Positions 59,157 to 59,420 of a stretch of DNA of 64,000 nucleotides are shown here, piece by piece. Every line of letters begins with the position of its first letter. The first letter of the stretch is position 1. The DNA is from a virus: IMG/VR virus record IMGVR_UViG_3300022562_000333, positions 19,251-83,250 of that record. One strand, given 5' to 3'. Both the position numbers and the translations under genes were made by a program. A model generated the notes under the pieces. The model was not told where the DNA came from. It saw nothing but the letters and a program-made list of their open reading frames with translations, and did no database searches.

Positions 59157-59420
59157 TGGAGCTGGCGGGAGTCGAACCCGCATAGTCTGCGTAAAGGTCT
59201 CGTGTAGGAAACGCGCTTCCCTCCCTCGGCAGTTTCGGCCAGCCCCCACAAGTTACCCGGTGGGGCGAGGAGCCGGTGCATCCGCAACCTTGAGCCAATT
59301 TGTCGAGGTAGAGGTCAACCCGAGCATCACCCTGTTGACGTGTGCCTCAACTACTTCGCAGGCCCCCTTACGGGGTACCGTTCCGTTTTTACGATCGCCT
59401 ATCCTTTCGGCCACAGCCCC
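59157..59420 (-). ncRNA. Unclassified Ala-acceptor tRNA-like RNA with ~200-nt insert
   Basis: GGGGCTG/CAGCTCC-A, D-arm, T-arm, CGTAAA/TTTACG stem enclosing the insert. Confidence 0.7.

What the first reader, a model, noticed from the sequence alone, without database searches (positions are those of the whole stretch)
59157..59420. Second tmRNA-like molecule: Ala-identity tRNA body with a ~200-nt structured insert replacing the anticodon loop
Seen: acceptor GGGGCTG/CAGCTCC with G3-U70 and A73 (AlaRS identity elements), a true D-stem (GCC-GAAAGGATA-GGC), a canonical T-arm, and a CGTAAA/TTTACG helix enclosing several hairpins (e.g. CCCC-GTAA-GGGG, GTCAAC..GTTGAC). A normal tmRNA already exists at 45434-45783. 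This RNA differs from tmRNA by having a D-stem and no ANDN-type tag, although one frame stays open to TAA at 59253 (..VADAPAPRPTG*). I did not recognise a group I intron core. Inference: an unclassified alanylated ncRNA, possibly an alternative tagging RNA, an EF-Tu/SmpB decoy or an intron-bearing tRNA.
Basis: partly seen in the sequence, partly recalled or inferred. Interest (0 to 1): 0.8.

Follow-up and report, generated by a model that had tools for sequence, protein, structure and literature searches.

The report
Non-decoding tRNA-shaped phage RNA
This is a real, conserved phage gene for a tRNA-shaped RNA that carries a large structured extra arm and has no usable anticodon; it belongs to an unannotated RNA family and is not a second tmRNA.

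Summary
The 264-nt element (window 59157-59420, minus strand) is real and its ends are exactly as reported. ARAGORN and Rfam do not call it. A covariance model built here found 13 copies in 12 of 86 related huge-phage records. It also found a minimal 154-214-nt form in Streptomyces phages and giant plasmids, none annotated as RNA. Acceptor, T arm and core helices covary strongly.

G3-U70 occurs in only 3 of 18 members and is G-C in two roughly 88-94% identical relatives. The 'tag' frame is not conserved, and its UAA lies in a GUAA tetraloop. No intron model matches. The CGUAAA/UUUACG closing helix is absent from the minimal forms.

Family-wide, the RNA has a complete tRNA body. A hairpin with an invariant A-rich 8-13-nt loop stands where the anticodon arm would be. 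The conserved ~100-nt domain is an oversized variable arm.

The RNA sits in tRNA arrays and encodes CCA as often as neighbouring tRNAs. Function is unknown; the likeliest reading is a tRNA-processed, non-decoding RNA that acts through its arm. This scan noted the same class before on other DNA.

The parts
59414..59420 (-). Acceptor stem, 5' strand (RNA nt 1-7)
   Evidence: Pairs 7/7 with 59158-59164. 5 of 7 pairs change on both sides in alignment A6 with 100% of cells paired. Acceptor sequences differ in nearly every member.
59397..59411 (-). D arm (RNA nt 10-24): 3-bp stem GCC/GGC with a 9-nt loop containing GG
   Evidence: Read directly. The three pairs are invariant in 5 sequences. Other members have 3-5-bp D stems of other sequence. 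Rfam's tRNA model aligns this region as the D arm in the minimal forms.
59377..59395 (-). Anticodon-position hairpin (RNA nt 26-44): stem AUCGU/ACGGU, 9-nt loop AAAAACGGA
   Evidence: A hairpin at this position with an A-rich AAAC/AAAG-containing loop of 8-13 nt is found in 18 of 18 members with many different stems. For L129 the script picked another hairpin, and I set the stem by hand with one mismatch.
59364..59375 (-). Hairpin H1 (RNA nt 46-57), CCCC-GUAA-GGGG
   Evidence: Compensatory change in L010 (CCUC-GCAA-GAGG). 80% of cells paired on A6. Absent from the minimal Streptomyces forms.
59354..59361 (-). P_v, 5' strand of the stem that closes the oversized variable arm (RNA nt 60-67)
   Evidence: Pairs 60-64 with 230-234. 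4 of 5 pairs change on both sides and 92% of cells are paired on A6. In X2, X3 and X7, C60U and U61C are matched by G234A and A233G.
59302..59351 (-). Variable 5' domain (RNA nt 70-119): H2 enclosing H3 (GUCAAC/GUUGAC)
   Evidence: In H2, 6 of 7 pairs change on both sides. H3 is swapped to GUUGAC/GUCAAC in L125. This domain is replaced by other sequence in L012, L126, L128, L132 and L133, and is absent from the minimal forms.
59196..59296 (-). Conserved core domain (RNA nt 125-225): stem H_e, block UUGCGGAUGCACCGG, three-way junction H_a/H_b/H_c, block GGGAAGCGCGUU
   Evidence: Model R1, built from three huge-phage sequences, finds it at 47-175 bits in 11 huge-phage loci and 7 Streptomyces phage or plasmid loci. 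Across the helices counted, 97.0% of cells are paired against 40-54% when slid, and 18 of 23 pairs change on both sides. H_b shows 7 fully compensatory substitutions in X2 and X7.
59253..59256 (-).
   Evidence: Coordinates. The GUAA loop is conserved on a covarying stem in cand, L010, L012, L124, L125, L126, L128 and L133.
59187..59194 (-). P_v, 3' strand (RNA nt 227-234)
Evidence: As for the 5' strand.
59165..59181 (-). T arm (RNA nt 240-256): GCGGG-UUCGACU-CCCGC
   Evidence: 5/5 paired in all 11 huge-phage members. 100% of cells paired, and 4 of 5 pairs change on both sides on A7.
59157..59164 (-). Acceptor stem 3' strand plus discriminator A (RNA nt 257-264); no CCA encoded here
   Evidence: Together with the T arm's 3' half, it is 24/25 identical to the 3' ends of many annotated tmRNAs.

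Best explanation
The element is a gene for a tRNA-shaped, non-decoding RNA of an undescribed family.

Shown:
- It has a full tRNA body (acceptor, D arm, T arm).
- A hairpin with an invariant A-rich 8-13-nt loop stands where the anticodon arm belongs.
- An oversized variable arm contains a conserved ~100-nt multi-helix core.
- In the huge-phage forms, including this one, the arm also carries a small GNRA-capped hairpin (H1), a closing stem (P_v) and a second, variable domain.
- It lies in tRNA arrays on the tRNA strand, with tRNA-like spacing.

Inferred:
- It is cut out of the array transcript by the tRNA-processing enzymes (RNase P at the 5' end, 3' trimming and CCA addition) and is stabilised by its tRNA fold.
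- It cannot read codons.
- It acts through the conserved arm, most likely as a binding platform or decoy for a tRNA-recognising protein of the phage or the host.
- The A-rich loop is probably tied up in a tertiary contact with the arm.

The alanine-type acceptor of this copy is a lineage-specific trait, not the family's mechanism.
For: Not a known family:
- ARAGORN lists 37 genes in the window and none here. None of Rfam's 26 gathering-level matches lies here.
- At E <= 10 the only match here is a sub-threshold tmRNA hit (31.5 bits, GA 47), which uses only the acceptor and T arm.

Family:
- Exact-pattern scans gave L010, L012 and L013.
- Model R1 gave strong matches in 12 of 86 related huge-phage records, 13 loci in all.
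- R1 also matched Streptomyces phage Gilson (52.9 bits).
- blastn with the Gilson RNA found 19 Streptomyces phage records and 6 giant plasmids, none with an RNA annotated there.
- R1 detects all 7 fetched Streptomyces examples at 49-74 bits.

Structure:
- The acceptor pairs 7/7 in 17 of 18 members with many different sequences.
- On A6, 91.2% of cells are paired against 38-48% when slid, 32 of 74 pairs change on both sides, and 0 of 500 shuffles reach this.
- On A7, 97.0% are paired against 40-54% when slid, 18 of 23 pairs change on both sides, and 0 of 500 shuffles reach this.
- In X2 and X7, seven substitutions in H_b are all compensatory. In X2, X3 and X7, two double changes preserve P_v.
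- An anticodon-position hairpin is present in 18 of 18 members.
- In 6 of the 7 minimal forms the arm stem starts 6 nt after that hairpin and ends 8-9 nt before the T stem (Comrade: 10 and 10 nt). This is the topology of a class II variable arm.

tRNA-like handling:
- 7 of 8 new loci lie in same-strand tRNA arrays, often 0-9 nt from a neighbouring tRNA.
- CCA follows the discriminator in 6 of 18 members (P about 2e-7 at 1/64 each). Neighbouring tRNAs have it in 15 of 54 cases.
- Rfam's tRNA model passes its threshold on two minimal forms using only the acceptor, D arm and T arm.
Against: - There are no expression data of any kind.
- The function is inferred only from anatomy and context.
- The proposed contact between the A-rich loop and the core segment GCGCGUU is weakly supported. 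Duplex energies beat shuffles only in L132 (2 of 500). Three members show compensatory-looking changes (L129, L132, L133). The Gilson-type core breaks the pairing without any change in the loop.
- Energy tests for P_v were not significant. By my estimate, a 6-bp match in the 45-nt search region is expected by chance.
It cannot be excluded as an alternative conformer in the candidate's own lineage.
- Distribution is patchy (12 of 86 records). The G005 copy is degenerate. The RNA is therefore dispensable for at least some phages.
- A7 was fitted to the model's structure, and 2 of its 20 rows are ordinary tRNA hits, so the figures lean towards the model.
Confidence: 0.72

Rival explanations
1. 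It is a second, divergent tmRNA or an alternative tagging RNA. It would be charged with alanine, enter stalled ribosomes with SmpB and add a tag.
For: - G3-U70 and A73 are present in this copy.
- The last 25 nt are 24/25 identical to the 3' ends of many annotated tmRNAs.
- Rfam's tmRNA model gives 31.5 bits.
- One frame is open to a UAA.
Against: - The tmRNA hit is below gathering (GA 47) and uses only the acceptor and T arm. ARAGORN does not call it, although it does call the true tmRNA at 45433-45783.
- The RNA has a D stem and an anticodon-position hairpin. As I recall it, the tRNA-like domain of tmRNA has neither.
- G3-U70 is present in only 3 of 18 members and is G-C in X2 and X3.
- The frame is shifted in L010. 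Its stop is a conserved GUAA tetraloop.
- SmpB is encoded in 0 of 5 records, although host SmpB could serve.
Confidence: 0.03
2. It is a genuine tRNA gene interrupted by an intron (group I or an unknown type) that is spliced out to give a decoding tRNA.
For: - It has a canonical tRNA body in a tRNA array.
- From my own knowledge, bacterial tRNA genes with group I introns of about 200 nt in the anticodon loop are known, and the insert size is similar.
- GNRA-capped hairpins are common in such introns.
Against: - No intron family matches at E <= 10 in the 851-nt region, nor at E <= 0.001-0.01 in the relatives' loci.
- The hairpin in the anticodon position has an invariant A-rich loop without the U33/anticodon pattern, on covarying stems. 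Removing the arm would therefore still leave no anticodon.
- There is no conserved U-G pair in that hairpin that could mark a 5' splice site (stems listed).
- The acceptor and discriminator vary as if no single amino-acid identity were kept.
Confidence: 0.05
3. It is a new kind of Ro60 partner (Y-RNA-like). Its tRNA-like body and arm would tether Ro60/Rsr to an effector, as YrlA does.
For: - Y-RNA-like elements flank it (Rfam YrlA 29.8 bits at 59425-59520). They also occur near copies in relatives (L010 43.7 bits; L128 35.8 bits).
- Earlier notes of this scan link related RNAs to Ro60 genes.
- YrlA also mimics tRNA (PMC4201824; I saw only the search listing and the start of the abstract).
Against: - A TROVE/Ro60 gene was found in 1 of 5 records. 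That record is G005, whose copy is degenerate. The complete carrier G004 has none.
- The candidate itself gives no YrlA match. I did not see in it the terminal stem and the GAAUG/CUUGUC-type motifs that the neighbouring Y-like elements carry (by eye and note e1-6116871).
Confidence: 0.1
4. It is a decaying tRNA or tmRNA pseudogene that has picked up inserted DNA and has no function.
For: - One family member (G005) is clearly degenerate and has a foreign ORF inside.
- Distribution is patchy (12 of 86 records).
Against: - All helices are kept by compensatory changes across distant members.
- Sequence blocks are invariant from huge phages to Streptomyces plasmids.
- The acceptor pairs perfectly in 17 of 18 members.
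Confidence: 0.02

Closest known systems
tmRNA (Rfam RF00023)
   Same: It is a tRNA-like RNA of a few hundred nt with a large structured region between the two halves of a tRNA body. It is encoded in phage tRNA clusters. This copy shares the G3-U70 acceptor, and its 3' end is 24/25 identical to tmRNA 3' ends.
   Different: - It has a D stem and an anticodon-position hairpin.
- It has no conserved reading frame, and I recognised no PK1-PK4 pseudoknot series.
- G3-U70 is not conserved (3 of 18 members).
- It scores below Rfam's gathering threshold, and ARAGORN does not call it.
YrlA / bacterial Y RNAs (Rfam RF02553; Chen et al. 2014, PMC4201824; search listing and start of abstract seen)
   Same: It is a non-decoding RNA that mimics tRNA. 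YrlA-like elements occur in phages and bacteria, and in this window they stand next to this gene.
   Different: - Here the RNA's two ends form a true acceptor stem, with CCA encoded in 6 of 18 members.
- There is no Ro60-binding stem and no YrlA model match on the candidate.
- A Ro60 gene was found in only 1 of 5 records.
Class II tRNAs (Leu, Ser, Tyr; Rfam RF00005)
   Same: The topology is the same: acceptor, D arm, hairpin in the anticodon position, an extra arm between that hairpin and the T arm, then the T arm. Two minimal forms pass Rfam's tRNA threshold (38.8 and 37.7 bits, GA 29).
   Different: - The extra arm is about 65-190 nt and carries a conserved multi-helix core. As I recall, class II extra arms are 10-24 nt.
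- The loop in the anticodon position is 8-13 nt, A-rich and nearly invariant, instead of 7 nt with U33 and an anticodon.
- ARAGORN does not call any copy.
tRNA genes with group I introns in the anticodon loop (Rfam RF00028)
   Same: A tRNA body is interrupted by about 200 nt of structured RNA with GNRA loops.
   Different: - There is no match to the intron model.
- The large domain sits in the variable-arm position, not in the anticodon loop.
- There is no anticodon to restore.

Membership tests
tmRNA | Scores at or above the family model's curated threshold and is called by ARAGORN | tested here: not met
   RF00023 gives 31.5 bits against GA 47 and aligns only the acceptor and T arm. ARAGORN makes no call here, though it calls the true tmRNA at 45433-45783.
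tmRNA | G3-U70 alanine identity pair conserved | tested here: not met
   It is present in the candidate, but in only 3 of 18 family members. U70 is C in relatives X2 and X3.
tmRNA | Conserved resume codon and tag reading frame ending in a stop | tested here: not met
   The frame to UAA exists in the candidate. It is shifted by a 1-nt indel in L010. The UAA lies in the GUAA loop of a covarying hairpin.
tmRNA | tRNA-like domain without a D stem or anticodon arm (feature recalled from my own knowledge) | tested here: not met
   A D stem and an anticodon-position hairpin are present and conserved.
tmRNA | Works with SmpB on stalled ribosomes | not testable with these tools
   No SmpB gene was found in 0 of 5 phage records. 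Host SmpB cannot be assessed.
Group I intron in a tRNA gene | Match to the intron core model (P3-P8, G-binding site) | tested here: not met
   No intron family appears among the 14 matches at E <= 10 in window 58850-59700, nor among the matches listed at E <= 0.001-0.01 in the relatives' loci.
Group I intron in a tRNA gene | The exons join to give a tRNA with a normal 7-nt anticodon loop | tested here: not met
   The anticodon position is occupied by a hairpin with an invariant A-rich loop of 8-13 nt in 18 of 18 members.
Group I intron in a tRNA gene | Splicing observed | not testable with these tools
   No RNA run was available.
YrlA / Y RNA | Match to the YrlA model, with a terminal Ro60-binding stem | tested here: not met
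   There is no YrlA match on 59157-59420. The YrlA hit lies next door, at 59425-59520.
YrlA / Y RNA | Co-occurrence with a Ro60/TROVE gene | tested here: inconclusive
   TROVE was found in 1 of 5 records (G005 only). It is absent from the complete carrier G004. Three of the five records are incomplete.
tRNA (RF00005), class II | Acceptor, D arm and T arm of a tRNA | tested here: met
   The RF00005 model passes its threshold on two minimal family members (38.8 and 37.7 bits, GA 29). For the candidate itself, no RF00005 row was printed; lower-scoring overlapping matches of the same clan were left out.
tRNA (RF00005), class II | 7-nt anticodon loop with an anticodon; called by tRNA finders | tested here: not met
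   The candidate's loop is AAAAACGGA (9 nt). ARAGORN calls no family member.
tRNA-shaped RNA family with a conserved extra arm (defined here by model R1; earlier notes of this scan call it 'anticodon-locked tRNA-shaped RNA') | Conserved core (UUGCGGAUGCACC ... GGGAAGCGCGU blocks on covarying helices) between an anticodon-position hairpin and the T arm of a tRNA body | tested here: met
   The candidate scores 149 bits with R1, but it was one of the three sequences the model was built from. Independent members score 47-134 bits. Covariation is shown.
tRNA-shaped RNA family with a conserved extra arm | The anticodon-position loop pairs with the extra arm (the 'lock') | tested here: inconclusive
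   A 4-8-bp complementarity exists in 17 of 18 members, with three compensatory-looking events (L129, L132, L133). It is not significant against shuffles except in L132, and it is broken in the Gilson type.

The most novel reading that the evidence does not exclude
The family is a new class of CCA-ended tRNA mimics. The tRNA body gets the RNA processed, and possibly charged. In this lineage that could be with alanine, through G3-U70. The conserved arm, together with the sequestered anticodon-position loop, would turn it into a decoy, inhibitor or adaptor for a tRNA-recognising machine. Candidates are a host anticodon nuclease or another tRNA-targeting defence, a synthetase, EF-Tu, or a tRNA repair or modification enzyme. 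The RNA would then be a non-coding weapon in the phage-host contest over tRNAs.
Probability: 0.2. Interest if true: 0.85.

Novelty: new variant of a known kind. Interest (0 to 1): 0.6.

Why it matters
tRNA mimicry is a recurring way for RNAs to recruit the cell's tRNA-handling machinery; tmRNA, Y RNAs and viral tRNA-like ends are examples. This is a conserved, well-structured mimic that standard tRNA finders and Rfam 15 miss. It lies unannotated in the deposited Streptomyces phage genomes and giant plasmids examined here, and in huge environmental phages.

Because cultured Streptomyces phages carry a minimal version, the function can be tested directly. The finding also matters for annotation. 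Such genes can be mistaken for tmRNAs, intron-bearing tRNAs or empty intergenic gaps. A G3-U70 pair on its own should not be read as evidence for alanine-dependent function.

Tried and rejected
- Single-sequence folding is uninformative (z = -0.49).
- blastn of the region and of the candidate against deposited phages matched only the flanking tRNA-Leu genes and the last 25 nt.
- Exact patterns found nothing. In one search, 3 of the 4 pattern hits were unrelated (a tmRNA, a tRNA-Ala and an AT-rich stretch).
- The metagenome scan only re-found the G005 phage. The genome-contig scan found nothing.
- The related 269-kb phage G001 and the closest protein-level relative G007 lack the RNA. Both records are incomplete.
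- Sequencing runs: no RNA holder was listed, so expression, ends and splicing could not be examined. The small-share DNA runs X2, X3 and X7 were used only for the substitutions printed (40 of 100 substitutions and 12 of 30 indels were shown). X4 did not cover the candidate.
- Energy-versus-shuffle tests for the loop-core contact and for P_v were not significant, apart from L132.
- The longest-helix search is biased towards P_v because its search region is larger.
- MAFFT alignment A5 of all 11 members was too poorly registered for pair counting, so I used A6 (5 sequences) and the model-fitted A7.
- Rfam's tRNA alignment of the minimal forms skips the whole middle, so it does not say where the insert sits.
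- RNA-ligase linkage was rejected as general. A ligase above the Pfam cut-off was found in 4 of 10 carrier records, within about 6 kb of the RNA in 2 (G005, G011), plus 1.3 kb away in Gilson.
- Short by-sequence look-ups in the scan's notes did not localise the block shared with e1-5677383.
- Literature: four full-text searches and passages of PMC10690425 and of 10.64898/2026.10.21.760802 gave no description of this RNA.
- Statements about AlaRS recognising G3-U70, T4 Pnk/Rnl1 repair, class II arm lengths and tmRNA domain anatomy are recalled, not taken from any call.
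Full report
**1. What is at the coordinates**

The window is a stretch of an 83-kb IMG/VR viral fragment that CheckV rates about 17% complete. It carries a dense minus-strand array of 36 tRNA genes and one tmRNA. Read on the minus strand, 59420 down to 59157 gives a 264-nt sequence with these features:
- an acceptor stem GGGGCUG/CAGCUCC that pairs 7/7, with G3-U70 and discriminator A;
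- a 3-bp D stem;
- a 5-bp T stem with loop UUCGACU.

ARAGORN and Rfam at gathering score do not call it. A permissive Rfam search of 58850-59700 gives only a sub-threshold tmRNA match (31.5 bits, GA 47). That match uses just the acceptor and T arm, and no intron family appears. Folding the single sequence is uninformative (z = -0.49). The record holds one copy.

**2. Homologues**

blastn against deposited phages matched only the last 25 nt, which are 24/25 identical to the 3' ends of many annotated tmRNAs.

Pattern scans of IMG/VR found three relatives:
- L010, full length, in a 252-kb contig;
- L012, in a 437-kb genome with terminal repeats;
- L013, a degenerate copy in a 427-kb genome.

The metagenome scan only re-found the L013 phage, and the genome-contig scan found nothing.

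I built covariance model R1 from the conserved 3' core plus T arm of three sequences. I collected 80 related huge-phage contigs through a 710-aa marker protein and ran R1 over whole records. Strong matches occurred in 4 of 10, 7 of 45 and 1 of 31 records. That is 12 of 86 records and 13 loci, since G054 has two copies. An eighth match (G014, 28.8 bits) is an ordinary 76-nt tRNA.

Contigs from three further metagenomes (X2, X3, X7) span the candidate syntenically, with roughly 6-12% substitutions over the aligned parts.

The marker protein has no cultured relative. R1 nevertheless hit Streptomyces phage Gilson at 52.9 bits, in an unannotated 191-nt gap between tRNA-Leu and gp128. blastn with that RNA found 19 Streptomyces phage records and 6 Streptomyces plasmids of 296-432 kb, none with an RNA annotated there. 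R1 detects all seven fetched examples at 49-74 bits. The candidate therefore belongs to one superfamily that runs from huge environmental phages to actinophages and plasmids.

**3. Architecture**

All 18 full-length members examined share four features:
- An acceptor stem. It pairs 7/7 in 17 members and 6/7 in L129, with many different sequences.
- A T arm, 5/5 in the 11 huge-phage members.
- A D arm.
- Immediately after the D arm, a local hairpin whose stem covaries while its loop stays A-rich and nearly invariant. Stems include AUCGU/ACGGU, GCAGG/CCUGU, CAGU/ACUG, UCGG/CCGA, ACAG/CUGU, CCGU/ACGG and GCCGU/ACGGC. The loop is usually (A)AAAACGG(A) and is 8-13 nt long.

In the seven minimal forms a 5-6-bp covarying stem follows. 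In six of them it starts 6 nt after the hairpin and ends 8-9 nt before the T stem; for Comrade the script placed it at 10 and 10 nt. It encloses the conserved core. That is the topology of a class II tRNA whose variable arm has grown to about 65-125 nt.

The huge-phage forms, including the candidate, insert three more elements:
- a small GNRA-capped hairpin (H1);
- a further closing stem (P_v, RNA 60-64 with 230-234);
- a second, variable domain (H2/H3) beside the core.

**4. Formal counts**

On the five-sequence alignment A6, my structure has 91.2% of cells paired, against 38-48% when the partners are slid. 32 of 74 pairs change on both sides, and 0 of 500 shuffles reach this.

On the 20-row model-fitted alignment A7 (18 members plus 2 stray tRNA hits), the core helices and T arm have 97.0% of cells paired, against 40-54% when slid. 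18 of 23 pairs change on both sides. This alignment leans towards the model.

The close relatives give independent support.
- In X2 and X7, seven substitutions fall in hairpin H_b. They replace two pairs with other Watson-Crick pairs, repair a C-U mismatch and turn a G-U pair into G-C.
- In X2, X3 and X7, C60U and U61C are matched by G234A and A233G in P_v.

**5.

The CGUAAA/UUUACG complementarity is real in the candidate, L010 and L124. On A6 it scores 90% paired, with 3 pairs changing on both sides. It shares strands with the anticodon-position hairpin and with P_v, so five sequences cannot separate the two readings cleanly.

Family-wide it fails. A helix of that type reaches 5 bp or more in only 5 of 11 huge-phage members, and only 3-4 bp in 7 of 7 minimal forms. 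I therefore read the large domain as sitting in the variable-arm position, not as replacing the anticodon loop.

**6.

- Alanine identity. The 3:70 pair is G-U in 3 of 18 members (cand, L010, L129), G-C in 3, C-G in 8 and U-A in 4. The discriminator is A in 14, G in 3 and U in 1. In X2 and X3 the U70-equivalent is C, although a change at G3 could be among the unprinted rows. This copy might well be charged by AlaRS (recalled: G3-U70 is the major determinant), but the family does not depend on it.
- Tagging. The frame is not conserved, and its UAA is part of the GUAA tetraloop of H_b.
- Intron. There is no model match, and there is no anticodon to restore.
- SmpB is encoded in 0 of 5 records and Ro60/TROVE in 1 of 5.

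**7. Handling and possible function**

In 7 of 8 newly found loci the RNA lies on the strand of flanking tRNA genes, often 0-9 nt from a neighbour. The candidate lies between tRNA-Leu(gag) plus a Y-RNA-like element on one side and tRNA-Leu(cag) on the other.

CCA follows the discriminator in 6 of 18 members (binomial P about 2e-7). Neighbouring tRNAs have it in 15 of 54 cases. Two minimal forms pass Rfam's tRNA threshold on their body alone.

I infer that the tRNA machinery matures the RNA like a tRNA, that it cannot decode, and that it works through the conserved arm.

What the invariant loop does is open. It is complementary to the core segment GCGCGUU over 4-8 bp in 17 of 18 members, with compensatory-looking changes in L129, L132 and L133. 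Energies beat shuffles only for L132, and the Gilson-type core breaks the pairing. I put that contact at about even odds.

Links to RNA repair genes are weak. A ligase and kinase lie 1.3 kb away in Gilson, and a ligase is adjacent in G005. Overall, a ligase lies within about 6 kb in only 2 of 10 carriers.

**8. Comparison and novelty**

The closest known kinds are tmRNA, YrlA-type Y RNAs and class II tRNAs. The RNA fails defining features of each (see the membership table).

I found no description in four literature searches or in passages of two candidate papers. Supplements were closed.

Earlier AI notes of this scan describe the same class on other DNA, including a 187-nt Streptomyces phage and plasmid form and an 'anticodon lock'. 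I reached the Streptomyces form independently with my own model. I confirm the architecture, but I find the lock and the Ro60 link unproven.

**Verdict:** this is a real member of an undescribed tRNA-mimic family.

Noticed in passing
window 59425-59520 and about 58904-59055 (minus strand); L010:495-628; L128:847-983: Y-RNA-like elements stand next to the candidate and near copies in relatives. Rfam YrlA scores are sub-threshold: 29.8, 43.7 and 35.8 bits against GA 69. The second window element was seen by eye only. A Ro60/TROVE gene was found in only 1 of 5 related records.
   Followed up: partly
L013:2776-3392 (minus strand), G005: This is a degenerate family copy. Both acceptor strands and the 3' core are kept. 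The A-rich hairpin and the UUGCGGAUGCACC block are replaced by about 460 nt holding an antisense 149-aa ORF (L013:2922-3371, no Pfam match). The T stem has a G-to-A mismatch. An RNA ligase gene (PF09414, 105 bits) lies directly upstream.
   Followed up: partly
L128:1501-1740 and L132:1501-1737 (both G054): One phage carries two copies of different build. L128 has an extra GUAA-type hairpin near its 3' end. L132 has the strongest loop-core complementarity (-11.5 kcal/mol).
   Followed up: partly
window 59157-59181: The T arm's 3' half plus the acceptor 3' strand are 24/25 identical to the 3' ends of many annotated bacterial and phage tmRNAs. I did not resolve whether this reflects shared alanine identity, gene conversion or chance.
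   Followed up: no
window 59233-59246 compared with 59405-59420: The candidate has an internal near-repeat of its own 5' end (RNA 175-188 compared with 1-16). This is what the Rfam tmRNA model aligned to. I did not see it in L010 or L012, so it is probably chance.
   Followed up: no
L039 (G007:148403-150517): The homologue of the 710-aa marker protein in the closest relative has one in-frame TGA. This could be a sequencing error, a pseudogene or recoding.
   Followed up: no
window 59610-60197 (minus strand): A 195-aa Dam-type DNA N6-adenine methyltransferase (PF05869, 47.6 bits) is inserted between tRNA genes just upstream of the candidate.
   Followed up: partly
NC_048742.1 81040-81230, and the same gap in related Streptomyces phages; NZ_CP119146.1 13554-13742 and five other plasmids: The deposited Streptomyces phage and giant-plasmid records examined leave this RNA gene unannotated. 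In the phages the next ORF is annotated to start 1-2 nt after the RNA's 3' end.
   Followed up: partly
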